Part shown: one piece after another, positions 2 to 58,005 of the stretch
How positions within the stretch are numbered: the first letter of the stretch is position 1
Layout of the letters: each line of letters starts with the position of its first letter
Virus record (IMG/VR): IMGVR_UViG_2974574300_000001
Coordinates: 20,420-84,419 of that record
DNA: 64,000 bases
DNA from: a virus
Taxonomy: Duplodnaviria > Heunggongvirae > Uroviricota > Caudoviricetes
Reading direction: 5' to 3' (one strand)
Made by a program: the position numbers and the translations under genes
Notes under the pieces: model-generated
Databases searched by the model: none
Seen by the model: the letters and a program-made list of their open reading frames with translations, nothing else
Told to the model about the DNA's origin: nothing

Positions 2-5694
<5,693 letters not shown>

Positions 5695-5696
5695 TA

Positions 5697-6863
5697 ATGG
5701 CAGTAGGTGAAATTCAAATTAGTGCCTTGCCTCAAGCAGCCTTACCAATTGACCTTAGTGATATCTTCCATCTTAAGCAGGGTATTGAGGATAAGAGATG
5801 TACTCTTGAGCAATTACTTGCTCCACACTCAAGCCTAAGAAATAACCCTCACGGTGTTACTAAAACACAAATTGGTTTAGATAATGTTATCAATGCTCTT
5901 CAGTTAGTTGCTGCAAATAACTTATCAGATGTTGCTAATGTCACTGAGGCAAGAGCAAATCTACAGATTATGTCTTCAGAAGAGGTTAATAGTCTTGTTC
6001 AACAGCATATTAATGATAAAAGTAACCCACACAATACAACTAAGGCACAGATTGGTTTGAGCAATGTCCAGAACTGGACAACATCTAATCTTTATAATGA
6101 AGATGCAGATAAGTACGCTACAGCAAGAGCAGTAAATAACTTGTACAAGGCTGTTCAGGCTTCTTATCCAGTAGGTACTATCCATCTCTCTATGAATCCT
6201 GCAAACCCTTCTACATATTTAATTTGTGGGGGTACTTGGGAGTTAGTTTCAAGAGGAAGAGCACTTGTAGGTTATGATAGTGATTCTAGGCCAGTTGGTA
6301 GTAACTTTGGCTCAAGTAGTGTTAGCTTATCTAGTAACAACCTACCATCACATAGCCATTCAATCTACCTAACTGGTGGTGGACACACTCATGGTGCTGC
6401 TATTACTATTGATGGCTTTGATTACGGCAATAAGAGCACAAACAGTTTCGATTATGGAACAAAGACCACTAATAGCACTGGTGCTCACACCCACTCAGTG
6501 AGTGGTTCAACAAATACCACAGGTAATCACACACATACTGTAGGTGGTCGTTATGGTGGTGACTCTATCGGTGGTAAACCGCGTGTTCAGGTATCTGGTA
6601 CAGAACAGGTTTCCAGTGTAGCTGGTGACCACTCACACACTATTAGCGGTTCAACAAATACCACAGGCAATCACCAACACACTGTTGCAATTGGTGCTCA
6701 CACGCATACTGTTGCAATTGGTGCTCATACCCATAAAGGCACAGTAACTTTGCAGTCATCTGAGCATACTCACTCAGGTACTACAGGTACTACAGGTGCT
6801 GGTCAAGCATTCAGCGTTGAACAACCATCCTTTGTGGTTTATGTATGGCAAAGAACCGCTTAA
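5697..6863 (+). CDS. tail fiber protein with C-terminal His-x-His repeat (metal-binding-type) tip
   Basis: 388 aa; C-terminus has many HxH motifs (SHSHS, GHTHG, AHTHSVSG, NHTHTV, DHSHT, NHQHTV, AHTHTV x2), as in T4 gp37/gp12-type fiber tips; shares a near-identical module with 8322..9257. Confidence 0.6.
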   Translation: MAVGEIQISALPQAALPIDLSDIFHLKQGIEDKRCTLEQLLAPHSSLRNNPHGVTKTQIGLDNVINALQLVAANNLSDVANVTEARANLQIMSSEEVNSLVQQHINDKSNPHNTTKAQIGLSNVQNWTTSNLYNEDADKYATARAVNNLYKAVQASYPVGTIHLSMNPANPSTYLICGGTWELVSRGRALVGYDSDSRPVGSNFGSSSVSLSSNNLPSHSHSIYLTGGGHTHGAAITIDGFDYGNKSTNSFDYGTKTTNSTGAHTHSVSGSTNTTGNHTHTVGGRYGGDSIGGKPRVQVSGTEQVSSVAGDHSHTISGSTNTTGNHQHTVAIGAHTHTVAIGAHTHKGTVTLQSSEHTHSGTTGTTGAGQAFSVEQPSFVVYVWQRTA

Positions 6864-6876
6864 AAATTCTTTTACA

Positions 6877-6898
6877 GGGGGCTGTACAGCCCTCTTTC
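6877..6898 (+). terminator. stem-loop plus T-rich tract between tail fiber genes
   Basis: gggct-gtac-agccc followed by tctttct; preceded by ctttacagggggct motif also present in the 51-54 kb cassettes. Confidence 0.3.
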
Positions 6899-6913
6899 TA
6901 GAGGACAAAAATA

Positions 6914-8275
6914 ATGGCAGATTACAAATTGAGTGAATTAAACTCAATCGATACAATCCGTTCAGACGACCTTCTTCATGTCAGGGTTAAAAAGAGACCT
7001 GAAATGCTGGGTGATGAAGACCGTCGAATGACCTATCAAGACTTCTTAGCATCTTTTAAGCTTGAAAGATTTGTTCAGATTGCTGGTAGTACTATGACTG
7101 GTGACTTAGGGATTGTTAAGTTACTTTATGGTGGTAAGGCAGTCTTTGACCCTACAGGCTCTTCCGAGATTACTATGGGGGATGTTTTAAAGACTTTTAA
7201 AATTAATGCAAATGGTCTTAAACTAACTATTGCAGATGCTTCAAGGTCTGCAACTGTTTATCATACTCTTAATAAGCCAAGTCCTAATGAGCTTGGGATG
7301 AGAACTAATGAAGAGAATGATGCAAGATATGCAAGGCTTGCTGTCACAAACACATTCTCTGGGACTCAGAACATTCAAGGTGATGTTAACTTACTTCGCC
7401 TTAGAAACCAAAATGCAAATAATGCACAATATATTGAAGGTGTAGACCTAGATGGCTCGGCTAGATGGTTGGTTGGTATTAGTAAAAATGGTTCTGATGC
7501 AGTGCAGTTGTACAATAATAAATATGACTCAGCTTTGACTATTGCAAGTAATATCTCTGTTAATAAGTCTTTAGCAATCACTGGTCAAGTCCAACCTTCG
7601 GATTTCTCTAACTTAGATGCTAGATACTTTACTCAGACAGTTGCTAATCAGAGATTTGCACAGTTAGCTGGGAATAACACTTTTACAGGTGCTAATACTT
7701 TCACTAACCTTGTTGTTAAGAAGAATGCTAATGCTATTACTTTGCAGAATACTGATGCAGGTACAGCACTTTATATTCTCGGTAAGAGGTCTGATGGAAC
7801 AAATAAATGGTATGTTGGTACAGATTCTGATGAGACACGTCTGAACATTTATAACTACCTTACAGGTTCACAGGTTTCACTAGGGACTACTATTGGTATT
7901 AATAAAACCGTGCAAATCAATGGTCAAGTTCAGCCATCTGATTGGACTAACATTGACTCTAGATATATTCCGGCAGCAACATTAAGTACAATTGCAAGAA
8001 CTAATGCACAAAATACTTTTAATGGTGCGCAAACAGTTGTTAGTGATGGCGAAGGTTTAGTTATTAAAAACTCTACTCAGAATAGGCCATTGTATATTCG
8101 TGGTAAGGACGCTGCCAATGTATCAAGATGGTGGTTAGGTGTTGGTGACCCAAATTCTACTGATGTAGCCTTAAACAACAGCTTCTCTGGCACTCAGTTA
8201 ATTTTAGGTAACTCATCTGCAAGTATCAATAAGACATTAACCCTAGCAGCAGATTCAACCTTCAGATTTCTCTAA
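6914..8275 (+). CDS. tail fiber protein with triplicated ~115 aa module
   Basis: 453 aa; internal repeats each ending GQVQPSD(F/W)(S/T)N(L/I)D(A/S)RY; third copy runs across the stop into the frame of the next ORF. Confidence 0.55.
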   Translation: MADYKLSELNSIDTIRSDDLLHVRVKKRPEMLGDEDRRMTYQDFLASFKLERFVQIAGSTMTGDLGIVKLLYGGKAVFDPTGSSEITMGDVLKTFKINANGLKLTIADASRSATVYHTLNKPSPNELGMRTNEENDARYARLAVTNTFSGTQNIQGDVNLLRLRNQNANNAQYIEGVDLDGSARWLVGISKNGSDAVQLYNNKYDSALTIASNISVNKSLAITGQVQPSDFSNLDARYFTQTVANQRFAQLAGNNTFTGANTFTNLVVKKNANAITLQNTDAGTALYILGKRSDGTNKWYVGTDSDETRLNIYNYLTGSQVSLGTTIGINKTVQINGQVQPSDWTNIDSRYIPAATLSTIARTNAQNTFNGAQTVVSDGEGLVIKNSTQNRPLYIRGKDAANVSRWWLGVGDPNSTDVALNNSFSGTQLILGNSSASINKTLTLAADSTFRFL

Positions 8276-50204: not shown

Positions 50205-50984
50205 ATGGGTATTGTAAAAGTTGTGAAAGGTAACTTACTGGCTGCCTTCAAAAACACAGATATTGAGTTAATTGCTCATGGTTGCAACTGTCGTAACCTC
50301 ATGGGTGCTGGAATCGCTCAAAAAATTGCTAAGATTTTCCCAAAAGCTGAAGAAGCTGACCGGAAATTCCATAAAAAGTTTGGCTACAGTGCTCATGATA
50401 TCGGATACCAGATGGTCGGTGAGGTGTCACATGCTCGAACGGAGTATGGTTACATTTTTAACCTATATACACAGTTGGATGTTGGGAAGTGTGCATCATA
50501 CCGATACTTAGTGGAGTCACTAGAAAAACTCCGTAAATTTTGCTGGCTGCACAACATTCGTAAGATTGGTTTACCCATGATTGGGGCAGGTATAGGTGGT
50601 TTAGATGCACAAGCTGTGAAAAGCCTCATTAATAGTGTTATGTATAACGTTGATGTGTACCTCTACGTCTATGATGAAACAATGGCAAGTGTAGTTACCC
50701 CTAAGTATGCTACCTCAGCACCACAATTCTATGATGGTGTCGTGCTAAGTGACGGGAAGACTAATCAAGTTACCCTCTATCAACTTGTTGAAGGTAAGGT
50801 CGAGGTTAGTTACCCTCTGGTTAGTGAGATGGGTATGTGCAACAGTGAAATGTTCCCAGTTGACCCGTTTGGAAGATATGAAGGTGTATTCTTTGATAAC
50901 TACCCAGCAGCGTACATCTACACAACAAATCAGGATGAAGTTCACTACTTGCTGTATTCTAAAAAGTTCAAATTCATAAGCTGA
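50205..50984 (+). CDS. macro-domain-like protein (ADP-ribose binding/processing)
   Basis: 259 aa; ELIAHGCNCRNLMGAGIAQKIAKIFP resembles the macro-domain glycine-rich loop of the OARD1/TARG1-like subgroup, as recalled. Confidence 0.45.
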   Translation: MGIVKVVKGNLLAAFKNTDIELIAHGCNCRNLMGAGIAQKIAKIFPKAEEADRKFHKKFGYSAHDIGYQMVGEVSHARTEYGYIFNLYTQLDVGKCASYRYLVESLEKLRKFCWLHNIRKIGLPMIGAGIGGLDAQAVKSLINSVMYNVDVYLYVYDETMASVVTPKYATSAPQFYDGVVLSDGKTNQVTLYQLVEGKVEVSYPLVSEMGMCNSEMFPVDPFGRYEGVFFDNYPAAYIYTTNQDEVHYLLYSKKFKFIS

Positions 50985-51130
50985 TTAGTACTTCACAGTA
51001 TCTGTAAGGTATTTAAGAAGGTCACCTAACCCATTGAAAAATTTAAGGTAAGGTGGCCTTTTTCATTTTCAATTCGTGCAGGTATCTGTATAGGTCTGTA
51101 CAGATATCTCCAAAAATCTCATCGCCGGAT

Positions 51131-51201
51131 AGAAAAATCATTTTCAAAACGTGCAGACCCCGCTCAGGTCGGGCAAGAAAAATCATTTTAGAATTGTGCA
51201 G
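51131..51201 (+). repeat. two ~25 bp direct repeats with a third partial copy at 51061-51081
   Basis: agaaaaatcattttcaaaacgtgcag and agaaaaatcattttagaattgtgcag. Confidence 0.5.
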
Positions 51202-51220
51202 GTAGGTTTTTATAGAGAGC

Positions 51221-51259
51221 CAGCCCAGCCCCTCTCCCCCTCTTACTCCCCCTCTCCCC
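51221..51259. repeat. C/T-only tract, G-rich on the minus strand
   Basis: cagcccagcccctctccccctcttactccccctctcccc; at least five C-runs of 3 or more in 39 nt. Confidence 0.5.
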
Positions 51260-51380
51260 AAAAGTCAAGAGAAAAATTTGTAGCGGATTGAAAAATAATT
51301 CTTGATTTGCGTTCTGTTTTGTGGTAGTCGTGTGCGCCCGTTCATTTCCCAACCTTACAAAAAATATTTAATAAAAACCG

Positions 51381-51409
51381 TTGACACGCCAAACAAGTTT
51401 ACGTACTAT
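51381..51409 (+). promoter_or_regulatory. sigma70-like promoter for the small-ORF cluster
   Basis: ttgaca-N17-tactat, then ggag RBS and ATG at 51459. Confidence 0.5.
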
Positions 51410-51458
51410 TTGCATCAGACGGGCAAGCAAGCCCACTTCCTAAACTGGAGAATCGAAA

Positions 51459-51665
51459 ATGCTTTACAGTCGTGAATTGATGGCTACAACTAACGTTAAC
51501 ACAAATGCAAAACGTTTTTACATGCAAATTTGTGGCGTATGGTCTAGAATATCAGAAGCTGACTATTGCAACTATGTAGAAACAGCTATAAACTCTAATT
51601 GCTACCTTACAAGAAATACTAAGAAGTTTACAAGGCAAACAGCGATTTACTATTACGATAAATAA
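51459..51665 (+). CDS. small early-type protein
   Basis: 68 aa; ATG with ctggag RBS. Confidence 0.4.
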   Translation: MLYSRELMATTNVNTNAKRFYMQICGVWSRISEADYCNYVETAINSNCYLTRNTKKFTRQTAIYYYDK

Positions 51666-51753
51666 AAAGTACTTTACATGGGGCTTAAAAGTCTGTAAAG
51701 TAAGCCCCAGATAAAGAGCTTTACCACTCAATCCTAAATTGGAGAACTTAAAA
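51666..51753 (+). promoter_or_regulatory. cassette A copy 1 (stem-loop plus conserved leader)
   Basis: ctttacatggggcttaaaagtctgtaaagtaagccccagataaagagctttaccactcaatcctaaattggag then ATG. Confidence 0.5.
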
Positions 51754-52134
51754 ATGGCATACCGCGCACCGAAATTCATCAATAAAGAAAATTTTCGTAA
51801 TGTATTAGAGAAGGCGCTTGATGAAAAATTTAACGGCAAAATAATTGTTGTTCACTCGTTCAATTTCAAGTATGATATCAACGGGAATAAAATCAACCAT
51901 TACACGGCAACCATGTTAGATGGCACTCTTTCAAGTGAAAAAACAATTCTCCATGCACTTGCTGGACGTGGAAAAAACCTGATAAGATGCGATAAGAGAC
52001 GTTATCAAGGTGGCGCATATGGTTATGATGATGCTATTTATCATCTTGAAAATATGGGCTATCAAGTAGAAAAAGCTGGAGTATCACAAATCATCGGGAG
52101 TGATGGTTATGTAACAACTTTCAAAATTAGATAA
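51754..52134 (+). CDS. small early-type protein
   Basis: 126 aa from ATG after the cassette (track start 51739 is an alternative start inside the cassette). Confidence 0.4.
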   Translation: MAYRAPKFINKENFRNVLEKALDEKFNGKIIVVHSFNFKYDINGNKINHYTATMLDGTLSSEKTILHALAGRGKNLIRCDKRRYQGGAYGYDDAIYHLENMGYQVEKAGVSQIIGSDGYVTTFKIR

Positions 52135-52223
52135 TAAAGTACTTTACAGGGGGCTTATAGTTCAATAAAGTAAGCCCCAGATAAAGAGCTTTACCACTAA
52201 ATCCTAAATTGGAGATTCAAAAA
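52135..52223 (+). promoter_or_regulatory. cassette A copy 2
   Basis: ctttacagggggcttatagttcaataaagtaagccccagataaagagctttaccactaaatcctaaattggag. Confidence 0.5.
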
Positions 52224-52514
52224 ATGGCTATTATCAAAAACGTTGTAATTCCTGCAAAAACTCGTGATGACGCTCGCATCATGGCGAAAAAGTTAGGCGG
52301 GAAAGTGGTTGACAATGGGAAACAATCTGCTGTAAGGTGGGGCGTGAAGGTTGATAAACAGTTGAAGTTAAAAAATTCACCAATAAACCTTTTTACATGT
52401 GTAAACACTATCGGGAAGACAAATGTATACACGAAAAAGGCATATATTAGACGCGTAGCCTTAACATCTCCCATTCGTACAATGAGAAGCTATGCAAAGC
52501 TAAAAATTAACTGA
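52224..52514 (+). CDS. small early-type protein
   Basis: 96 aa from ATG at 52224 (track 52209 trimmed). Confidence 0.4.
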   Translation: MAIIKNVVIPAKTRDDARIMAKKLGGKVVDNGKQSAVRWGVKVDKQLKLKNSPINLFTCVNTIGKTNVYTKKAYIRRVALTSPIRTMRSYAKLKIN

Positions 52515-52601
52515 TAAAGTACTTTACAGGGGGCTTAAAAGTTGATATCTTAAGCCCCAGATAAAGAGCTTTACCACTAAATCCTAAATTGGAGATTCAA
52601 A
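52515..52601 (+). promoter_or_regulatory. cassette A copy 3
   Basis: ctttacagggggcttaaaagttgatatcttaagccccagataaagagctttaccactaaatcctaaattggag. Confidence 0.5.
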
Positions 52602-53114
52602 ATGAAAAATGTAGACGCTACCTTTGAAGTTGTAAAAGAAAAATTTTCCATCATCTACGAAGCGGTAAATTGCTATGAAGCAAGCCATAATCTTGATAAT
52701 TGGAAGTTTACAGATGACCATCAAGGCGGCGTGACTGTTAAAAATCCTAACTGTCAGTATAATGAATTTAAATATGCAATCCCTTTGCATTACAGCCTTA
52801 AACAGCTTTCAAGTGACTATGCAAAACAAGGCCGGGAAAATCCATCAAAAGATGCTTACATTAGCTTACAGAAAGAATTAGAAAGAGATTTAGAGGCTTC
52901 AGAATACGACCTTGCCGCGAAAGTTGTCGATGCAAATGGCAACACGGTTTTAGAGAGTTTTTATCTAGGATATGCCTTTGACTGGTGCTATAGTGACGGT
53001 GATGATTTAGAGGAAAGACTAAAAGAAGAGGTGAGCAATTCAGACGCAGAAACTGAAGTATTAGAACGTTTGGAATCATTAAAAGACTCAGTGATGAATA
53101 TCTTTAAGAACTAA
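52602..53114 (+). CDS. small early-type protein, acidic
   Basis: 170 aa ORF directly after cassette A copy 3. Confidence 0.4.
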   Translation: MKNVDATFEVVKEKFSIIYEAVNCYEASHNLDNWKFTDDHQGGVTVKNPNCQYNEFKYAIPLHYSLKQLSSDYAKQGRENPSKDAYISLQKELERDLEASEYDLAAKVVDANGNTVLESFYLGYAFDWCYSDGDDLEERLKEEVSNSDAETEVLERLESLKDSVMNIFKN

Positions 53115-53200
53115 AGAGATTTCTTTACACGGGGTTATCAAGCTGATAAGATAGCCCCAGATAAAGAGATTTATCAACTGTCCTAAACTGGAGATTCAAA
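53115..53200 (+). promoter_or_regulatory. cassette A copy 4 (diverged)
   Basis: ctttacacggggttatcaagctgataagatagccccagataaagagatttatcaactgtcctaaactggag. Confidence 0.45.
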
Positions 53201-53497
53201 ATGAAATTATCAAATAAAGTTCGTGAAAATCTAAGCAAGTTACTAAACAAAATTGATTTCATTGAAACATCAAGGAATAATCATGATGTTATGGAATGGT
53301 TACATGGAAAAATAAAAGGCCGTCGTGTAGTGATTTGCTTATGGAATAGTTGCAGGGAGTATAAAAAACCTGTATTGCAAGTCAATATTTATGATGACAC
53401 TTTTAAAAGTCCAGTAAAGTCTAAAAGCGATTTATTAGAATCCTATGAGATAACTGTAAATGGCAAAGTATCACGTAAAGAGGAAACACCATGTTAA
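53201..53497 (+). CDS. small early-type protein
   Basis: 98 aa ORF after cassette A copy 4. Confidence 0.4.
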   Translation: MKLSNKVRENLSKLLNKIDFIETSRNNHDVMEWLHGKIKGRRVVICLWNSCREYKKPVLQVNIYDDTFKSPVKSKSDLLESYEITVNGKVSRKEETPC

Positions 53498-53823
53498 TGA
53501 CTGGTATCACTGCAATCATTGCCATTTTCGCGCTATATAAGGCATATAAAGCCTATAATCTAGCAAATAAGGCAATCACGCAACAGGTTAGCAATAGCCT
53601 TGTAGAGAGCTTTCTAGAGCGCCTCAGTGATGAGCAAATAAAGCGGCTAGAGATGAGCTTCAGATATAAAGCGAAAACCTATCAGATAAGTGACATCTTC
53701 AAAGATGATTTTCAGTTAGTCGATGATTATAATTCACTGATAAATGCTTTAAATATCAGTGACTTAAAAGACTACTACGCTGTAATTGTTCAAGAATTGA
53801 GCAAACGAAAACAAAGTGTTTGA
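53491..53823 (+). CDS. small early-type protein
   Basis: 110 aa; start overlaps upstream stop; hydrophobic N-terminus. Confidence 0.4.
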   Translation: MLMTGITAIIAIFALYKAYKAYNLANKAITQQVSNSLVESFLERLSDEQIKRLEMSFRYKAKTYQISDIFKDDFQLVDDYNSLINALNISDLKDYYAVIVQELSKRKQSV

Positions 53824-53913
53824 CACTGGTTTTTAGATAGATTAAATTACACATCAACGGGGAGGGAATGACCTTCCCCACTAAATAAAGTCCTTAAACT
53901 AGGAGAGTCTAAA
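53820..53913 (+). promoter_or_regulatory. cassette B copy 1: sigma70-like promoter, leader stem-loop, RBS
   Basis: ttgaca-ctggtttttagatagat-taaatt, then ggggagggaatgaccttcccc hairpin and aggag before ATG 53914. Confidence 0.55.
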
Positions 53914-54186
53914 ATGTATACTACTAACAATGGTCGTACTTTAAATGTAACTTTACGTCACTATGTAGACGGTGTAATGCACTTTGAGGATTTACGGGCT
54001 GAACAACATATCTTAGATTGGCAAGTAGCAGGACTCCAAAAAACTGCTACGGGATACGGTAAAAAGATTCCAACCAGTTGGAAAGTACACTACGAAGGAC
54101 GTTTGCGCAGAATTTATCAAGATGTATGTAGTAATAGTGCATCAAGTTACATCATAGTAAAAGGTAAAAAGCTGCATTTAGTATAA
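53914..54186 (+). CDS. small early-type protein
   Basis: 90 aa ORF after cassette B. Confidence 0.4.
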   Translation: MYTTNNGRTLNVTLRHYVDGVMHFEDLRAEQHILDWQVAGLQKTATGYGKKIPTSWKVHYEGRLRRIYQDVCSNSASSYIIVKGKKLHLV

Positions 54187-54271
54187 AGTACTTTACAAGG
54201 GGCTTAAAAGTCTGTAAAGTAAGCCCCAGATAAAGAGCTTTACCACTAAATCCTAAATTGGAGATTCTAAA
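54187..54271 (+). promoter_or_regulatory. cassette A copy 5
   Basis: ctttacaaggggcttaaaagtctgtaaagtaagccccagataaagagctttaccactaaatcctaaattggag. Confidence 0.5.
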
Positions 54272-54676
54272 ATGGCTATTAACAACCGTGAATTAGCAAT
54301 CTTAAAAGCACGTTTGACCGTTAACCGGATTAATGTTATTACGTCATCAGCACCGGATGAAACATTGCATAACATTATTGGGAAGATTCAAAGTGTTATC
54401 TTAGACGTTGAAAATGTAAAAAGCTCATTGGCTGACGTTGCAGCAGGTATCACGCTAGACGGCGCACAATATGAAATGTCCGACATGTTAGGCAAATCAA
54501 AGGTAATGAATAAAGAATTAGACTTGAAAATGTTTCGATTTGCTGTCAAAGTGTGGCTATCTGTCGAGTATGACGCTAATTTTGCAATCGCTGATTTCTT
54601 TGCCACTTGGTTACAACGTAATTTGACAAATCACGATTTTCGTGATGTCTGTGATGCAATTTATGCAGAACTCTAA
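54272..54676 (+). CDS. small early-type protein
   Basis: 134 aa ORF after cassette A copy 5. Confidence 0.4.
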   Translation: MAINNRELAILKARLTVNRINVITSSAPDETLHNIIGKIQSVILDVENVKSSLADVAAGITLDGAQYEMSDMLGKSKVMNKELDLKMFRFAVKVWLSVEYDANFAIADFFATWLQRNLTNHDFRDVCDAIYAEL

Positions 54677-54684
54677 AAATTTTG

Positions 54685-54779
54685 TTGACACTGGTTTTTA
54701 TATAGATTAAATTACTAATCAACGGGGAGGGAATGACCTTCCCTACTAAATAAAGTCCTTAAACTAGGAGATTCTAAAA
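54685..54779 (+). promoter_or_regulatory. cassette B copy 2: promoter, leader stem-loop, RBS
   Basis: ttgaca-ctggtttttatatagat-taaatt, then ggggagggaatgaccttccc hairpin and aggag. Confidence 0.55.
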
Positions 54780-55127
54780 ATGGCTTATGTAACCGTAATT
54801 ACTGATAAAGCTGGCGCATCTTGGTCAACTCAGGTTAGTGATAAGATGTCACCTATGCAGTGTCTAAAATACTTTGAGCAATGGAATAAAGGCGAAGATG
54901 TAAGCCCCTTTCAAGTGATGCAGGTTATCCATGTAGATAACGAAGGGAATAAAACGACCTTAAATAGTGAGTACTACGCAAGCCGTTTTGAAACGAGAAG
55001 TAAAGCAATGAAGCTCTTACGTGAGGCCGGATATGGTCACATTGCCGCGATAATCTGGGATGACCTTCTAAAAAGTCAACGTATCAGCTATGTAAAACCT
55101 GAAAAATATTCATCAGTTAATCAATAA
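54780..55127 (+). CDS. small early-type protein
   Basis: 115 aa ORF after cassette B copy 2. Confidence 0.4.
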   Translation: MAYVTVITDKAGASWSTQVSDKMSPMQCLKYFEQWNKGEDVSPFQVMQVIHVDNEGNKTTLNSEYYASRFETRSKAMKLLREAGYGHIAAIIWDDLLKSQRISYVKPEKYSSVNQ

Positions 55128-55152
55128 CTTACAAAAAACTTTTAAAAAATTG

Positions 55153-55343
55153 TTGACAATACCCCTTGACATTGGTAACTTTGTTCGAGGGGGTTTATCT
55201 AAAAGGGATTCACTTAAAAGATTCTTTATAGATAAGCTTAAAAAATTGCTTGCAATCAGCTATCAAAAATCTGTAAATTACTAATCAACGGGGAGGCGAT
55301 AACCTCCCCACTAAATAAAACCCTTAAACTAGGAGATTCTAAA
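55153..55343 (+). promoter_or_regulatory. cassette B copy 3 (extended): tandem ttgaca boxes, then B-type -10/stem-loop/RBS
   Basis: ttgacaataccccttgacattgg; later ttgcaa-N18-taaatt, ggggaggcgataacctcccc hairpin, aggag before ATG 55344. Confidence 0.45.
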
Positions 55344-55592
55344 ATGGCTACTATCCGCGCAACTGTTAACGAATTTGGCTTCTACTCTCTGGATGTTAAA
55401 TTTGACATTGCAGGCACTGATAACGCCTTTGAAATGGTGAAAGGCCTTATCAGTCAGACCATCAAAGATTATAATCCTTCGGATGAGTTCTGGGAGGAAA
55501 CAAAACAAGAAGTTCTCAAGGATGGCTATACTTATCACTATTGGGGAGAAAAAATCGTCTCCCTGTACTACAATAAACAAGATTATAACTAA
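55344..55592 (+). CDS. small early-type protein
   Basis: 82 aa ORF, last of the cassette-framed array. Confidence 0.4.
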   Translation: MATIRATVNEFGFYSLDVKFDIAGTDNAFEMVKGLISQTIKDYNPSDEFWEETKQEVLKDGYTYHYWGEKIVSLYYNKQDYN

Positions 55593-55612
55593 ATAGCCCC
55601 AGATACCTTTAC

Positions 55613-55637
55613 AGCCCCTTCATAGGGGCTTTTTTAC
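55613..55637 (+). terminator. rho-independent terminator ending the small-ORF array
   Basis: agcccct-tcat-aggggct followed by tttttt. Confidence 0.6.
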
Positions 55638-55978
55638 GTCTATCGAATCTTTATACAATCCCTTTTCCTCGCCTTTCTAGAATCTTACTAGACCTTAAAA
55701 AGCAATAACTCTATAGCCTACTCTATAGCCTTTTATCAAATCAACTTAAATATAAGCCATAACCCGAAAGGGAAGGGCAACCACTAAAACGCTCTATAAC
55801 GCTCTATAACAGCCTTATCAACCTAACTTAAGCAATCATATTAACCCACCCTAAAAAGCCCTTTATAAAGCTTCTTAGAGCCTTAAAAGAATCTTATAAG
55901 GGTGTAAGCTTTATTATCTCGTTAGTTATCTTGTGAACTACTAAAAAGGGCTTGGTAGCTCCTTTAAAGTATGTTATA

Positions 55979-56133
55979 GGGGCTATGAAGTTACTTCAAA
56001 GTAACGTAAAAGGGGCTTAAAAGTTACTTCAAAGTAACGTAAAAGGGGCTATGAAGTTACTTCAAAGTAACGTAAAAGGGGCTTAAAAGTTACTTCAAAG
56101 TAACGTAAAAGAGGTTATAAAGTTACGTAAATG
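55979..56133. repeat. tandem array of a 33 bp unit (4 full copies plus a partial), each with a short palindrome
   Basis: ggggct(atgaa/taaaa)gttacttcaaagtaacgtaaaa repeated; internal inverted repeat gttac-ttcaaa-gtaac. Confidence 0.7.
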
Positions 56134-56141
56134 CTAGCCCC

Positions 56142-56193
56142 CTTAACATTTTCTTAACATTTTCTTAACATTTTCTTAACATTTTCTTAACAA
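56142..56193. repeat. 11 bp tandem repeat, about 4.7 copies
   Basis: cttaacatttt repeated head-to-tail. Confidence 0.7.
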
Positions 56194-56222
56194 ATCCTAC
56201 ATAGTTATGCTTTTAAGCAACT

Positions 56223-56752
56223 TGTTAGCCCCTTGTTAAATCTCTGTTAAGACCACGTAAAAGCCTTGTAAGAGTCTTTGACATAGCCTTAAAAGCCCCT
56301 GTAAAGCCCTATAAAGAGCTATCCGTACAGTTGAGGGGTAAATACTAGGAAGAGACTTAAAAGAGCCTATAAAGAGCTATAGAGGGCTTTTAAGAGGTAT
56401 GTTTAAGGAATCACTAAGAAAGGAAAGGGAACGATAAGAAAGAAGAGTTGTGTTTGTAAACAACCACTGTGACCATGTTAATAGCTTGTTAAAAAGATTA
56501 AACACTTGTTAGGAACTTGTTAATTATCTTAACAAAATAACTCTTTAAAATTAACTAATTAACTCTTGTTAGTCATCTGTTAAGCCTCTGTAAAGACTAT
56601 GTATCAACTGTTAAGAAACTGTTACACCCTTGTTAGTTCTGTTAAGAATCTGTTAAGACCTTTGAAGAGTTGTTAAGAAGATGTGAGAACTGTTAAGAGA
56701 TTGTTAAGGATATTTTAAAATTCTGCAAAGGGGGTGTTAAGGGGCTGTTAAG
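56223..56752. repeat. cluster of TGTTAAG / TGTTAG heptamers (iteron-like), many phased about 11 bp apart
   Basis: at least 17 copies; spacings of 11, 11, 9, 11 and 20, 20, 11 nt between successive copies in 56609-56752. Confidence 0.6.
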
Positions 56753-57125
56753 GGCTACCAAGCAGATATACATCCTCTACAGATATTTTTCAGTTCCTTC
56801 AAAGACCCTAAAAAATGACTTGATAGTCCTATTTTATAAAAATTTTAAAATTCTGAATAATTACCTATACAGTCTTTCTAAAATACAGGTGATAACAGGC
56901 TTATAAGATACCTTGTTAGTACCGTGTTAGACCTTGTGAGATAAGGTCTGTAAAGATATTCCTGTTAAGTTTGTTAAAACAGTCTATATAGAGGCTTAGT
57001 AATACCGAGTGAACACCTATAGAGGGTCACATAGCTAACCTAATGGGTTACTGTTAAGTAACACAGATAACCCAGAGATTAAGAGGTGTATAGGAGCTTC
57101 TAAGAGGGTATAGAGAGGTGGTTAA

Positions 57126-57167
57126 GGTGATTGTATAGGTTGTTAAGGTGATTGTATAGGTTGTTAA
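57126..57167. repeat. perfect 21 bp direct tandem repeat
   Basis: ggtgattgtataggttgttaa x2, flanked by more gttaag motifs. Confidence 0.7.
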
Positions 57168-57363
57168 GATGGCTTGTTAGAGGGCTAGTTAGAAGGGTTA
57201 TACAGAGGGCTATTAAGACCACTAGATAGTTACTAAGATACTATATAGTACTATATAACTATATAGAGAGTAAGATTAAGAAGGTTGTTAAGAAGGATAG
57301 ATATTTTGTTCACATATGATGGTGACCCAGAGGTTGGGACAACCGATAAAATTTTATAAAAAT

Positions 57364-57392
57364 TAAAAAGCCCCCAATTAAGGAGGCTCTTA
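57364..57392 (-). terminator. rho-independent terminator for the minus-strand cluster
   Basis: minus strand reads agcctcc-ttaatt-gggggct followed by ttttaattttt. Confidence 0.5.
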
Positions 57393-57399
57393 AGATATT

Positions 57400-57951
57400 T
57401 TAAATCAGTGTTTCCAGAACTGTTTTTAATGATGACTTGGTTGTCTGATAAAAATGAGTGAATCCATTGTTGTTATCAAATATCTGCATCATAACAGCAT
57501 CTCCCTTGATTGGGTACACTCGGATATCATAGTGAAACCCATTAAAGACACAAGACCCATTACAGAATGCACTAAAGTCATCCACTGAGATATACTCTTC
57601 ATGACCTGTGATTTTTATACAGACACCTTTACTTGGTCTCTTAGGGTTGATATCTTCCATCACAGACATACTCTGTCCACCAAGAGATACCATCGTGACC
57701 ACTTTACGGTTCTTCTGTTTAAAGTACATTTTAACTTTCTGTAAAGTGTCTTCATAGAACGGATAAGACTTTTCTACAAAGATTCCTTCAAGTGGCTCTT
57801 TACCATTTCTAACTTCTCTGATATGTCGTACTGAGAAAATAAGTTGCTCTAGTATGTCAAGACTTTCTTTGGAGAGTGCTTCTCGAACATCACTCCAATC
57901 AAGAACTAGGTAGTTACCTTCAACTTCTTTTACATCCATAAGCTCTTTCAT
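57400..57951 (-). CDS. hypothetical protein
   Basis: 183 aa ORF; no confident motif. Confidence 0.4.
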   Translation of the reverse strand: MKELMDVKEVEGNYLVLDWSDVREALSKESLDILEQLIFSVRHIREVRNGKEPLEGIFVEKSYPFYEDTLQKVKMYFKQKNRKVVTMVSLGGQSMSVMEDINPKRPSKGVCIKITGHEEYISVDDFSAFCNGSCVFNGFHYDIRVYPIKGDAVMMQIFDNNNGFTHFYQTTKSSLKTVLETLI

Positions 57952-58005
57952 TCCGCTACCTTCTAAGTTTCTATAAAGGGGCTATCAAGTAACCCCCTCA
58001 AGTTA

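What the first reader, a model, noticed from the sequence alone, without database searches (positions are those of the whole stretch)
51381..55637. Ten small ORFs framed by two families of reiterated promoter/stem-loop cassettes
Each of ten small + strand ORFs (68-170 aa) is preceded by one of two conserved cassettes. Type A (5 copies: 51666, 52135, 52515, 53115, 54187): ctttacagggggctt, an 8 bp stem-loop (ggggctta...taagcccc), then agataaagagctttaccactaaatcctaaattggag and ATG. Type B (3 copies: 53820, 54685, 55153-55343): a consensus-like sigma70 promoter (ttgaca-N17-taaatt), a GC-rich leader hairpin (ggggagggaatgaccttcccc), then cttaaactaggagattctaaaatg. The cassettes are far more conserved than the ORFs they separate. 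This matches the promoter-early-stem-loop architecture described in T4-type phages, where such cassettes are thought to drive early expression and act as recombination sites for shuffling small host-takeover or anti-defence genes. The Type A 5' motif ctttacagggggct also occurs at 6870-6885 between tail-fiber genes, which would allow long-range recombination. Type A has no obvious sigma70 boxes or T-tract, so it may be a processing site or a phage-specific promoter.
Basis: partly seen in the sequence, partly recalled or inferred. Interest (0 to 1): 0.7.

Follow-up and report, generated by a model that had tools for sequence, protein, structure and literature searches.

The report
Promoter-hairpin cassettes framing swappable phage genes
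In a Felix O1-like phage, a 4-kb run of ten small genes of unknown function is punctuated by two families of repeated promoter-plus-hairpin cassettes, and related phages have gained and lost genes by recombination within them; this extends a mechanism known from T4-like phages to a second phage group.

Summary
The repeats are real and far beyond chance. The window is a Felixounavirus. Eight of the ten small ORFs are preceded by Type A (5 copies) or Type B (3 copies) cassettes that fill the 85-103 nt gaps (the third Type B ends a 216-nt gap).

Across 39 related loci, gene content differs by whole modules. In four of five indels examined, the crossover lies inside the cassettes. Cassettes also evolve in concert.

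Two claims fail:
- Type A does carry sigma70 boxes: invariant TTTACA, a 17-nt spacer and TAnnnT, often with TGn, lying in the hairpin loop.
- The 6870 match is a 13-nt chance hit inside a terminator.

Type A also folds into a roughly 20-bp two-helix RNA hairpin with compensatory changes, including GGGG/CCCC to GGUG/CACC in Erwinia phage phiEa21-4. In Type B the hairpin lies at the predicted 5' end of the mRNA.

All ten ORFs are of unknown function. Earlier papers listed parts of these cassettes only as "direct repeats" or "SAS-like" repeats. My verdict is a new member of a known kind, of moderate interest. Promoter activity and the hairpin's role remain inferred.

The parts
51381..51458 (+). 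Array-start cassette (P0): sigma70-like promoter TTGACA (51381-86)-N17-TACTAT (51404-09), small hairpin GGGC..GCCC (51421-51434), leader/SD CCTAAACTGGAGA (51439-51451)
   Evidence: Promoter scan scores 10/12. The fold is weak (z = -1.1). The leader motif is shared with Type A.
51459..51665 (+). ORF w1, 68 aa (Felix O1 ORF15 family)
   Evidence: phrog_5293, unknown function. Absent from FG1m and Mushroom.
51666..51753 (+). Type A cassette copy 1: -35 TTTACA 51673-78, -10 TAAAGT 51696-51701, two-helix hairpin 51666-51722, leader/SD 51733-45
51754..52134 (+). ORF w2, 126 aa
   Evidence: phrog_4495, unknown. Absent from Felix O1.
52135..52223 (+). Type A cassette copy 2: -35 52143-48, -10 TAAAGT 52166-71, hairpin 52135-52193
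52224..52514 (+). ORF w3, 96 aa
   Evidence: phrog_5089, unknown. Absent from Felix O1. Duplicated in Citrobacter phage Michonne.
52515..52601 (+). Type A cassette copy 3: -35 52523-28, TGn + -10 TATCTT 52546-51, hairpin 52515-52573
   Evidence: The Felix O1 deletion junction switches to match this copy.
52602..53114 (+). ORF w4, 170 aa (Felix O1 ORF16)
   Evidence: Homologues occur in phiEa21-4 and outside Ounavirinae. Peak expression at 5 min in Felix O1 RT-PCR.
53115..53200 (+). Type A cassette copy 4 (divergent variant): -35 53124-29, TGn + -10 TAAGAT 53147-52, hairpin 53117-53172 with compensated stems (GGGGUUAUC/GAUAGCCCC; AGAUUUCUUUA/UAAAGAGAUUU)
   Evidence: dG -26.6, z -4.1
53201..53823 (+). 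ORFs w5 (53201-53497, 98 aa) and w6 (53491-53823, 110 aa). They overlap by 7 nt, have no cassette between them, and form one two-gene module
   Evidence: Adjacent in 26 of 26 junctions across genomes.
53820..53913 (+). Type B cassette copy 1: -35 TTGACA 53820-25 (contains the w6 stop codon), -10 TAAATT 53843-48, hairpin 53859-53879, SD TTAAACTAGGAGA 53894-53906
   Evidence: (10/12)
53914..54186 (+). ORF w7, 90 aa
   Evidence: A second paralogous copy (w7b) is present in most relatives but not in the window.
54187..54271 (+). Type A cassette copy 5: -35 54192-97, -10 TAAAGT 54215-20, hairpin 54184-54242
54272..54676 (+). ORF w8, 134 aa (Felix O1 ORF20)
   Evidence: Peak expression at 5 min in Felix O1 RT-PCR.
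54677..54779 (+). Type B cassette copy 2: -35 TTGACA 54685-90, -10 TAAATT 54708-13, hairpin 54724-54743, SD 54759-71. This is a recombinant junction: relatives carry a block of w7b, A, x8-x9 (some also x15) here
54780..55127 (+). ORF w9, 115 aa (Felix O1 ORF21)
55128..55343 (+). Composite intergenic region. 55128-55265 is the left part of the w9|x10 intergenic region of relatives (two overlapping TTGACA at 55153-71). 55250-55343 is the Type B-prime cassette (TTGCAA-N18-TAAATT 55274-79, hairpin 55290-55309, SD 55324-36). The crossover that removed gene x10 (Felix O1 ORF22) lies near 55262-55273
55344..55592 (+). ORF w10, 82 aa (Felix O1 ORF23)
55593..55637 (+). Array end. Type A-like fragments (ATAGCCCCAGATA, CCTTTACAG) are fused to the only canonical intrinsic terminator on this strand in the scanned region (stem 55613-55630, then T-run)
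   Evidence: It occupies the same position as terminator t23 of Felix O1.

Best explanation
The region is the hyperplastic accessory-gene array of a Felix O1-like phage. It is built from self-contained expression modules. Each module starts at the stop codon of the previous ORF and consists of an AT-rich tract, a host sigma70-type promoter, an RNA hairpin, a conserved leader with SD, and then one or two small ORFs.

The two cassette families differ in where the hairpin sits:
- Type A: the hairpin arms bracket the -10 element. The 5' arm lies in the -35 region and spacer, and the 3' arm lies in the first roughly 15 transcribed bases. The full two-helix hairpin of about 20 bp therefore exists only in RNA that reads through from upstream. 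There it probably attenuates, insulates, or marks a processing or 3'-stabilising site.
- Type B: the hairpin starts 10 nt after the -10. It therefore sits about 3-4 nt from the 5' end of the module's own mRNA, like a 5'-terminal stabiliser.

Because 60-90 nt of near-identical sequence recurs every 0.3-0.6 kb, homologous recombination between cassettes deletes, duplicates and exchanges whole modules without breaking expression signals. This can occur within one genome or between co-infecting relatives. It generates the gene-content diversity seen across Ounavirinae.

Shown here: the repeats, promoter-type conservation, folding with compensatory change, cassette-bounded indels with crossovers inside cassettes, concerted evolution, and restriction to this locus.

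Inferred: actual promoter activity, the role of the hairpin, the recombination pathway, and any anti-defence role of the ORFs.
For: Promoter, Type A:
- All five window copies scan as TTTACA-N17-TAnnnT.
- In 83 unique copies from 39 loci, TTTACA and the T and A that open the -10 hexamer are invariant, although they sit in an otherwise variable loop.
- Information content is 1.75, 1.75 and 1.64 bits at -10 positions 1, 2 and 6, against 0.2-0.5 bits at positions 3-5.
- A TAnnnT lies 16-18 nt from TTTACA in 90 of 91 unique cores, and at 17 nt in 82. TGn is present in 52 of 90. The 20 nt upstream are 77% AT against 61% for the window.
- The 1-nt length variant places its indel after the -10, so the spacer is preserved.

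Promoter, Type B:
- The spacer is 17 nt in 96 of 103 unique copies with a predicted promoter.
- The -10 is TAAATT in 78 of them.
- The -35 hexamers vary but stay near consensus even where the upstream sequence is unrelated.

Hairpin:
- dG is -24.6 to -26.6 kcal/mol, with z of -2.3 to -4.1.
- 97.3% of cells pair, against 31-58% when partners are slid. G-C changes to U-A in 9 unique copies. C-G changes to U.G in 37, which is tolerated only in + strand RNA.
- RNAalifold finds the same two helices independently.
- phiEa21-4 keeps the design with GGUG/CACC in all four copies.

Recombination:
- Module maps of 8 and then 39 loci differ by whole modules.
- The crossover lies inside the cassette in 4 of 5 indels.
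- The cassette-less pairs w5-w6 (26/26) and x8-x9 (23/23) are never split.
- The clade-specific GGGGT variant is fixed in 31 of the 32 Type A copies in Mooglevirus/Suspvirus loci.
- Cassettes occur nowhere else in the genome.

Context:
- ORFs of this region are transcribed at 5-25 min in Felix O1.
- One array module (Bas63 g107) has a host-dependent fitness effect.
Against: - There is no transcript mapping for any phage of this group, so promoter use is inferred from sequence only.
- The Type A -10 hexamers are weak (3-4 of 6). Part of the -10 (its last T) and the -35 also lie in stems, so some conservation could come from the hairpin rather than from RNA polymerase.
- Most stem pairs never vary. 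The covariation term is small (-0.48), and only 2 of 19 pairs show two-sided changes within the family.
- The Felix O1 RT-PCR timing does not sort by cassette type: w4 and w8 (after A) and w9 (after B) peak at 5 min, while w5 (after A) and w7 (after B) peak at 25 min.
- No cassette has a U-tract, so terminator function, which was shown for one T4-type PeSL, is doubtful here.
- One of the five indels (FG1m lacking w1) is a replacement without a clear crossover.
Confidence: 0.72

Rival explanations
1. Type A is primarily an RNA element, not a promoter. In this reading it is an RNase III-type processing or 3'-stabilising hairpin that cuts a long early transcript into single-gene mRNAs. That transcript would be driven by the few strong TTGACA promoters (51381, 53820, 54685), as in the T7 early region. 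The TTTACA/TAnnnT pattern would be incidental to the stem sequence.
For: - The helix is about 20-23 bp, interrupted by a 3x3 internal loop, between cistrons.
- G.U wobbles valid only on the + strand, and compensatory changes, point to RNA-level selection.
- There is no intrinsic terminator between the ORFs, so read-through is expected.
- The resemblance to T7 R1.1-type sites is recalled from memory and was not tested.
- The upstream gene encodes a macro-domain protein that one annotator flagged as 'possible RNase III inhibitor'. This is weak.
Against: - RNase III does not read loop sequence, yet the loop's T and A at -10 positions 1-2 are invariant while neighbouring bases vary.
- The distance from TTTACA to TAnnnT is held at 17 nt, and indels avoid the spacer.
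- TGn is enriched (52/90), and the upstream tract is AT-rich.
- In phiEa21-4 the hexamer changes to TAGTAT/TAATCT but keeps its position.
- This reading is not exclusive of the best explanation. The same 60 nt can serve both roles.
Confidence: 0.15
2. The inverted repeats are operators. A phage- or host-encoded dimeric DNA-binding protein would bind the palindrome overlapping each promoter to shut off, or switch on, the whole array together. This is the view the cluster K authors favoured for ESAS elements.
For: - The palindrome overlaps the -35 to +15 region.
- Several unpaired positions are also invariant (internal loop ACA/AGA, and AGATAAAGAG).
- How Felix O1 regulates transcription over time is stated to be unknown.
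Against: - The two arms are not the same sequence read on opposite strands at the mismatched positions.
- Stem changes are compensatory or G.U, which DNA-binding specificity would not predict.
- The apex can shift register by one base while keeping the pairing.
- No candidate regulator was identified.
Confidence: 0.07
3. Only the leader/SD block (CCTAAAyTGGAGA / TTAAACTAGGAGA) is functional, as a translation-initiation enhancer in the manner of start-associated sequences. In this reading the rest of each cassette is conserved merely because frequent recombination homogenises it.
For: - The leader is shared by Type A and the array-start cassette (6 copies against 0.94 expected).
- It was the only part noticed by the Mordin annotators.
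- Concerted evolution is real.
Against: - Homogenisation cannot explain position-specific conservation inside a variable loop.
- It cannot explain preservation of the promoter-plus-hairpin design in phiEa21-4, where the SD block itself has changed to AAAGGAA.
Confidence: 0.04

Closest known systems
PeSL (promoter-early stem-loop) cassettes of T4-like phages (Arbiol et al. 2010, PMC2839356; Comeau et al. 2014, PMC4122927)
   Same: - The element order matches: stop codon, AT-rich tract, sigma70-like -35/-10, stem-loop rich in GGGG..CCCC, then SD and ATG.
- The stem-loop lies between or over the boxes (as in Type A) or after the -10 (as in Type B).
- The cassettes lie in a hyperplastic region of small ORFans.
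- Indels between close relatives are bounded by the cassettes, with crossovers mapped between the -10 and the ATG.
   Different: - The host genome is Ounavirinae (Felix O1-like), not T4-like, and the cassette sequences are unrelated.
- There are only two tight sequence families, confined to one 4-8 kb locus, rather than many dispersed PeSLs.
- Type A has an extra lower helix that pairs the -35 region with the first transcribed bases.
- Promoter activity, terminator activity and mini-circles are demonstrated for T4-type PeSLs but are untested here.
Start-associated sequences and extended SAS (SAS/ESAS) of cluster K mycobacteriophages (Pope et al. 2011, PMC3203893). This comparison was already made for the 26-bp leader repeat of Citrobacter phage Mordin (PMC4611695).
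   Same: - A conserved asymmetric block containing the SD lies just upstream of the start codons of a subset of non-structural genes.
- Those genes have unusually long intergenic gaps.
- About half of the blocks are preceded by an imperfect inverted repeat with a variable spacer.
- The repeats are conserved in front of unrelated gene families.
   Different: - The sequence is unrelated, and the host is Gram-negative.
- Here a sigma70 promoter signature can be read.
- Departures in the two arms do support RNA pairing here, whereas the ESAS authors found they do not.
- A role in module exchange was not proposed for SAS/ESAS.
RNase III processing sites between early genes of T7/T3 (from established knowledge, not tested here)
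   Same: - Repeated irregular hairpins of about 20 bp with an internal loop sit between small early genes.
- Those genes are transcribed by host RNA polymerase.
- The array ends in a single terminator.
   Different: T7 sites carry no promoter signature. Cleavage here is untested, and no Rfam family matched.
5'-terminal stabilising stem-loops of E. coli mRNAs such as the ompA 5' UTR (from established knowledge)
   Same: The Type B hairpin begins exactly 10 nt after the -10 hexamer. [quoted passage not shown]
   Different: The transcription start is predicted rather than mapped, and no stability data exist.

Membership tests
PeSL regulatory cassettes | Sigma70-like -35 and -10 hexamers at 17 +/- 1 nt in each cassette | tested here: met
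   Type B scores 10/12 and Type A 9/12 in all window copies. The conservation pattern across 83-109 unique copies supports this.
PeSL regulatory cassettes | AT-rich tract upstream of the -35 | tested here: met
   The 20 nt upstream are 77% AT (Type A) and 75% AT (Type B), against 61% for the window.
PeSL regulatory cassettes | Stable stem-loop, often GGGG..CCCC, placed between, over, upstream of or just downstream of the promoter boxes | tested here: met
   In Type A the arms bracket the -10. In Type B the hairpin starts 10 nt after the -10.
PeSL regulatory cassettes | Bounded by the upstream stop codon and by the SD plus start codon of the next gene | tested here: met
   The cassettes fill gaps of 85-103 nt from stop codon to ATG.
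PeSL regulatory cassettes | Concentrated in hyperplastic regions rich in small genes of unknown function | tested here: met
   About 25 ORF families form the pool. All ten window ORFs are of unknown function. Cassettes are absent from the rest of the genome.
PeSL regulatory cassettes | Insertions, deletions and replacements between close relatives are bounded by cassettes, with the crossover inside them | tested here: met
   Met in 4 of 5 indels examined. Supported by the maps of 39 loci and by cassette-less pairs never being split.
PeSL regulatory cassettes | Measured promoter activity, and terminator/attenuator activity of the stem-loop | not testable with these tools
   Needs reporter fusions or transcript mapping. 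No U-tract follows the hairpins.
PeSL regulatory cassettes | Formation of mini-circles by recombination between neighbouring cassettes | not testable with these tools
   Needs inverse PCR on infected cells.
PeSL regulatory cassettes | Found in T4-like myoviruses (the group in which the family was defined) | tested here: not met
   The window is a Felixounavirus. I therefore file it as PeSL-like in a new host group, not as one of the described PeSLs.
SAS/ESAS of cluster K mycobacteriophages | The 13-bp consensus GGGATAGGAGCCC lies 3-7 bp from the start codon | tested here: not met
   The leader here is CCTAAAyTGGAGA or TTAAACTAGGAGA. The position is similar, but the sequence is unrelated.
SAS/ESAS of cluster K mycobacteriophages | An imperfect inverted repeat with a variable 4-13 bp spacer lies immediately upstream of a subset of the start-associated blocks | tested here: met
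   Type A has 22-nt arms that are 82% complementary, 11-13 nt apart. Unlike ESAS, departures here keep RNA pairing.
T7-type RNase III processing sites | An irregular hairpin of about two helical turns with an internal loop, between cistrons of an early polycistronic RNA | tested here: met
   Type A has an 11-bp lower helix, a 3x3 internal loop and an 8-9 bp upper helix.
T7-type RNase III processing sites | Cleavage by host RNase III | not testable with these tools
   Needs end mapping in rnc+ and rnc- hosts.
Intrinsic (rho-independent) terminators | A G+C-rich stem followed directly by a U-tract | tested here: not met
   On the + strand, only 55613-55630 qualifies. None of the cassettes does.
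T4 MotA-dependent middle promoters | A MotA box (a/t)(a/t)(a/t)TGCTTtA lies 11-13 bp upstream of the -10 | tested here: not met
   Some copies read TGCTTTA, but it ends 19 nt before the -10. [quoted passage not shown]

The most novel reading that the evidence does not exclude
Type A may be a true dual-use element. As DNA, the 60 nt would be a host-polymerase promoter. As RNA read through from upstream, they would form a hairpin that is cleaved or blocks the transcript, so that every module is transcriptionally insulated. On this reading, the array would work as an integron-like gene-cassette exchange system without an integrase. That system would have been maintained across at least four genera of Ounavirinae, with compensatory evolution of the hairpin. 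It would trade accessory genes such as w4 with unrelated phage families that carry their own hairpin+SD arrays.
Probability: 0.3. Interest if true: 0.6.

Novelty: new member of a known kind. Interest (0 to 1): 0.45.

Why it matters
- It extends PeSL-type modular shuffling, described so far only in T4-like phages, to a second and unrelated group of virulent myoviruses. These phages are widely used for Salmonella and E. coli typing, biocontrol and therapy.
- It offers a candidate answer to part of a question the Felix O1 genome paper left open, namely how transcription of this region is organised. It does so by proposing at least nine sigma70-type starts that the paper did not list.
- The more than 250 sequenced relatives form a ready-made natural experiment on how short regulatory repeats create gene-content diversity.
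- The roughly 25 swappable small ORFs are a defined shortlist for host-range or anti-defence screens. One of them already shows a host-dependent fitness effect in Bas63.
- For phage engineering, the cassettes mark natural insertion points that keep expression signals intact.

Tried and rejected
- Rfam, permissive E-value search of 50500-58000: only three chance-level hits (E 0.5-0.95), none convincing.
- Long-range partner at 6870: rejected. It is a 13-nt identity (E = 0.17) inside a hairpin+T-run matching the terminator called t76 in Felix O1. The minus-strand match at 56291 is similarly short.
- Intrinsic terminator role for the cassettes: rejected, because there is no U-tract.
- MotA-box middle promoter: rejected on spacing.
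- N4-type hairpin promoter: rejected. From general knowledge those have 3-nt loops, whereas the loop here is 11-13 nt, and no phage RNA polymerase is reported.
- Protein function: Pfam, PHROGs, NCBIfam and PADLOC gave only 'unknown function' families or sub-threshold hits. I ran no further search on the ORFs, because the finding concerns the cassettes.
- Literature: no transcript-start mapping was found for any Felix O1-like phage, and one search was wasted on over-broad terms. The wV8 paper says nothing on promoters or repeats. The phiEa21-4 paper is not held. The PhageMaP supplement with per-gene scores is not held, so only the text statement on g107 could be used.
- My automated count of Type B hairpins picked up small upstream helices and undercounts. 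The listing is the better basis.
- The variability figure for cassette junctions (22%) is inflated by the two w7 paralogues. The robust part is that cassette-less pairs are never split.

Full report
**1. What the window is**

The 4.4-kb region matches 253 phage records. The best hits are Salmonella phages FG1m, PMBT20 and VSe11 at about 97% identity, and Felix O1 itself at 96% over 77% of the query. The window is therefore a Felixounavirus. The region corresponds to Felix O1 ORF15-ORF23. It lies downstream of rIIA/rIIB and of a macro-domain 'phosphatase' gene.

**2. The observation**

The repeats are there.
- The repeat finder recovers four Type A copies of 100 nt at 79-100% identity, plus a fifth, divergent copy. 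It also recovers three Type B copies.
- The Type A 16-mer gives 10 matches in the window against 0.43 expected. The 27-mer 3' arm gives 4 exact matches against 0 expected.
- The ten + strand ORFs exist. The cassettes fill the 85-103 nt gaps from stop codon to ATG.

Three corrections are needed.
- Only eight ORFs follow a Type A or B cassette. ORF1 follows its own promoter-like element at 51381. ORF6 overlaps ORF5 by 7 nt and has no cassette.
- The third Type B copy shares only the part from the -10 onward.
- The statement that Type A lacks sigma70 boxes is wrong (section 3).

BLAST of both cassettes finds nothing else at E <= 0.01, either in the 64-kb window or in the 30 kb of Felix O1 that the window does not cover. 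The elements are therefore specific to this locus. The 6870 match is a 13-nt identity (E = 0.17). It lies inside a GGGGGCTGTACAGCCC + T-run hairpin that matches the sequence Felix O1's authors list as terminator t76. I treat it as chance.

**3. Type A is a promoter-like element wrapped in a hairpin**

The consensus scan finds TTTACA-N17-TAAAGT/TATCTT/TAAGAT in all five copies, two of them with a TG extended -10. To test whether this is more than a consensus accident, I collected copies from seven phage records and from an IMG/VR scan. This gave 164 full copies, 91 unique 60-62 nt cores, and 83 unique rows in alignment A1.
- TTTACA is invariant.
- The T and A that open the -10 hexamer are invariant in A1, although they lie in a loop whose other positions vary freely.
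- Among the 71 cores of modal length, -10 positions 1, 2 and 6 carry 1.75, 1.75 and 1.64 bits. Positions 3-5 carry 0.2-0.5 bits, and the other loop positions mostly 0.75-1.1 bits. This is the classic sigma70 -10 signature.
- A TAnnnT lies 16-18 nt from TTTACA in 90 of 91 cores, and at 17 nt in 82. TGn precedes it in 52 of 90. The 20 nt upstream of the -35 are 77% AT, against 61% for the window.
- In the 60-nt variant the missing base lies after the -10, so the spacer stays at 17 nt.

The same 60 nt also fold, as RNA, into a two-helix hairpin.
- The lower helix is 11 bp (AAAGUACUUUA/UAAAGAGCUUU, with one A.A mismatch). It is followed by a 3x3 internal loop, an 8-9 bp G+C-rich upper helix, and an 11-13 nt loop.
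- dG is -24.6 to -26.6 kcal/mol, with z of -2.3 to -4.1.
- On A1, 97.3% of cells pair, against 31-58% when the partners are slid.
- One lower-helix pair changes from G-C to U-A in nine unique copies. One upper-helix pair is C-G in 44 copies and U.G in 37, and that wobble is valid only in + strand RNA.
- RNAalifold predicts the same two helices on its own, but with a small covariation term of -0.48. Within the family the support is therefore mainly thermodynamic.

The strongest covariation comes from outside the genus. A related Felixounavirus genome is reported as only 51.8% identical to Erwinia phage phiEa21-4 (Kolesnikvirus).
- phiEa21-4 has four recognisable Type A cassettes.
- They keep CTTTACA, the 17-nt spacer and a TAGTAT or TAATCT hexamer.
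- Their upper helix is GGUGUUUA/UAAGCACC instead of GGGGCUUA/UAAGCCCC. That is a two-sided G-C to U-A swap, present in all four copies.
- They fold to the same shape (dG -22 to -28, z -3.8 to -5.4).

The promoter signature and the hairpin are thus both maintained across genera.

**4. Type B**

Copies 1 and 2 score 10/12 (TTGACA-N17-TAAATT). Among 109 unique copies, 103 have a predicted promoter.
- The spacer is 17 nt in 96 of them, and the -10 is TAAATT in 78.
- The -35 is TTGACA, TTGCAA, TAGACA, TTGATT, TTGACG or TTGACT, even in copies whose upstream sequence is unrelated.
- The G-rich hairpin (dG about -11 to -16) starts exactly 10 nt after the -10 in nearly all the variants listed.

With a start about 7 nt after the -10, the hairpin would lie 3-4 nt from the 5' end of the mRNA. 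From general knowledge of 5'-terminal stabilising stem-loops such as ompA, that is the geometry that protects mRNA. This step is inferred.

**5. Cassette-bounded gene exchange**

I clustered the ORFs and ordered them together with the cassettes. The superset array is:

b-x16-w1-A-w2-A-w3-A-w4-A-w5w6-B-w7-A-w8-B-w7b-A-(x15-A)-x8x9-b-w9-b-x10-b-(x14-b)-w10-terminator

Each genome lacks a different subset.
- The window lacks x16, the w7b..x9 block, and x10.
- Felix O1 lacks w2, w3 and the w7b..x9 block.
- FG1m lacks w1.
- KhF1 has an extra x15.

About 25 ORF families make up the pool. A few true rearrangements occur: w3 is duplicated and x16 relocated in Michonne, and x15 and w7 are swapped in L032.

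Three-way alignments place the crossover inside the cassette in four of five cases.
- The Felix O1 w2-w3 deletion: between the loop and the SD of Type A.
- The window's loss of w7b..x9: between the hairpin and the SD of Type B.
- The window's loss of x10: in the spacer/-10 region of Type B-prime. This also explains the odd 216-nt gap at 55128-55343.
- Meda against KhF1 (x15): inside Type A.
- The fifth case (FG1m, w1) is a replacement without a clear junction.

As an internal control, module pairs that have no cassette between them are never separated: w5-w6 in 26 of 26 junctions and x8-x9 in 23 of 23.

The cassettes also evolve in concert.
- In the loci that proved to be Mooglevirus/Suspvirus (Michonne, Mordin, phiSUSP1 and relatives), 31 of the 32 Type A copies read GGGGT.
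- Felixounavirus copies read mostly GGGGC.
- Cassette identity between different positions of one genome (86.8%) is about as high as between the same position of different genomes (88.5%).
- In divergent orthologous pairs the cassettes stay 86% identical, whereas the ORFs fall to 72%.

**6. The genes**

All ten ORFs match PHROG families of unknown function. None has a significant Pfam, NCBIfam or PADLOC match.
- In Felix O1, RT-PCR found ORFs 16, 20, 21 and 22 maximal at 5 min, and ORFs 17, 19 and 23 maximal at 25 min. The region is therefore early to middle, but timing does not sort by cassette type.
- In Bas63 (JohannRWettstein) the array is genes 98-111. I confirmed the numbering through the NAD-synthesis genes 79 and 80.
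- The PhageMaP preprint reports that g107 is more essential in host S17-1 than in three other hosts. g107 is the x8 module, which is absent from the window. This is the only functional hint, and it fits an accessory, host-dependent role.
- w4 has homologues outside Ounavirinae. In Seunavirus 4MG it sits in another array of small ORFs with its own hairpin+SD repeat.

**7. Comparison with what is known**

PeSLs of T4-like phages are defined as follows.
- They are strong sigma70-like promoters with an AT-rich upstream tract and a stem-loop.
- The stem-loop may lie between the boxes, over either box, upstream of them, or just after the -10. It is followed by SD and ATG.
- They lie in hyperplastic regions, and recombination between them causes indels and mini-circles.

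Every sequence-level criterion is met here. Promoter/terminator activity and mini-circles cannot be tested with these tools, and the host group is different.

Parts of these elements had been seen before, but not interpreted.
- The Felix O1 genome paper lists the 57-bp Type A and 39-bp Type B sequences simply as direct repeats. It omits them from its promoter list and calls temporal regulation unknown.
- The Mordin announcement describes the 26-bp leader as reminiscent of the start-associated sequences of cluster K mycobacteriophages, with role unknown.
- SAS/ESAS are indeed architecturally similar, with an SD-containing block plus an upstream inverted repeat. Their authors, however, found no support for RNA pairing and no recombination role.
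- Two full-text searches combining PeSL or stem-loop terms with this phage group found no paper applying the PeSL concept to it.

**8. Verdict**

The finding is real. Its main interpretation stands and is now backed by comparative evidence. It is a new member of a known kind rather than a new kind of system.

The mechanistic points that remain open are whether Type A promoters fire, and what the read-through hairpin does (attenuation, RNase III processing or 3' protection). These need transcript mapping.

I rate interest as moderate, at 0.45. A specialist would not be astonished, but the system is unusually clean, conserved across at least four genera, and directly testable.

Noticed in passing
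window 51063-51204; L109 3042-3102: Three copies of TCATTTTCAAnnCGTGCAGGTA lie between the macro-domain gene and the array start. The same motif occurs twice at the equivalent place in Erwinia phage phiEa21-4, so it is conserved across genera. Its function is unknown.
   Followed up: partly
window 51229-51262: A C-rich tract, CCCAGCCCCTCTCCCCCTCTTACTCCCCCTCTCCCC, lies just upstream of the first promoter of the array.
   Followed up: no
window 55640-57400: This 1.8-kb stretch has no sizeable ORF and lies between convergent transcription units. It is packed with tandem repeats: 33/66-bp x4.5 at 55978-56126, 11-bp x4.6 at 56142-56192, 21-bp x2.5 at 57116-57168, and others. It looks iteron-like and is a candidate replication origin or genome-end region.
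   Followed up: partly
window 55593-55630: Directly after the last ORF, fragments of the Type A 3' arm (ATAGCCCCAGATA) and 5' motif (CCTTTACAG) are fused to the terminal intrinsic terminator. This may be a relic of an old cassette.
   Followed up: no
window 50205-50984: The gene upstream of the array encodes a 259-aa macro-domain 'phosphatase'. The annotators of phage Meda flagged it as a possible RNase III inhibitor. That would be relevant only if the Type A hairpins are RNase III substrates.
   Followed up: no
window 53491-53497 and 53820-53825: ORF5 and ORF6 overlap by 7 nt (ATGTTAATGA) and are never separated in 26 related loci. The TGA stop codon of ORF6 lies inside the -35 hexamer TTGACA of Type B copy 1.
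   Followed up: yes
L110 (Escherichia phage 4MG, KF550303) 3400-7400: A homologue of ORF4 (w4) sits in an unrelated 148-kb phage, within another array of small ORFs. Those ORFs are separated by their own repeated hairpin+SD cassette (GCCGGGACGGTTCCCGGC ... AAAGGTAAA). The same architecture may therefore recur in other phage families.
   Followed up: partly
L007 (KhF1, KT184313) 3060-3080, 3925-3945, 5483-5503: The public record annotates the Type B leader hairpins as minus-strand rho-independent terminators. This is probably a prediction artefact, given that all genes there are on the other strand.
   Followed up: no
GU169904.1 (hit H18): A 147-kb record named Staphylococcus phage SA1 carries 91%-identical Felix O1-like sequence covering this array. 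It is probably a mixed or chimeric assembly.
   Followed up: no
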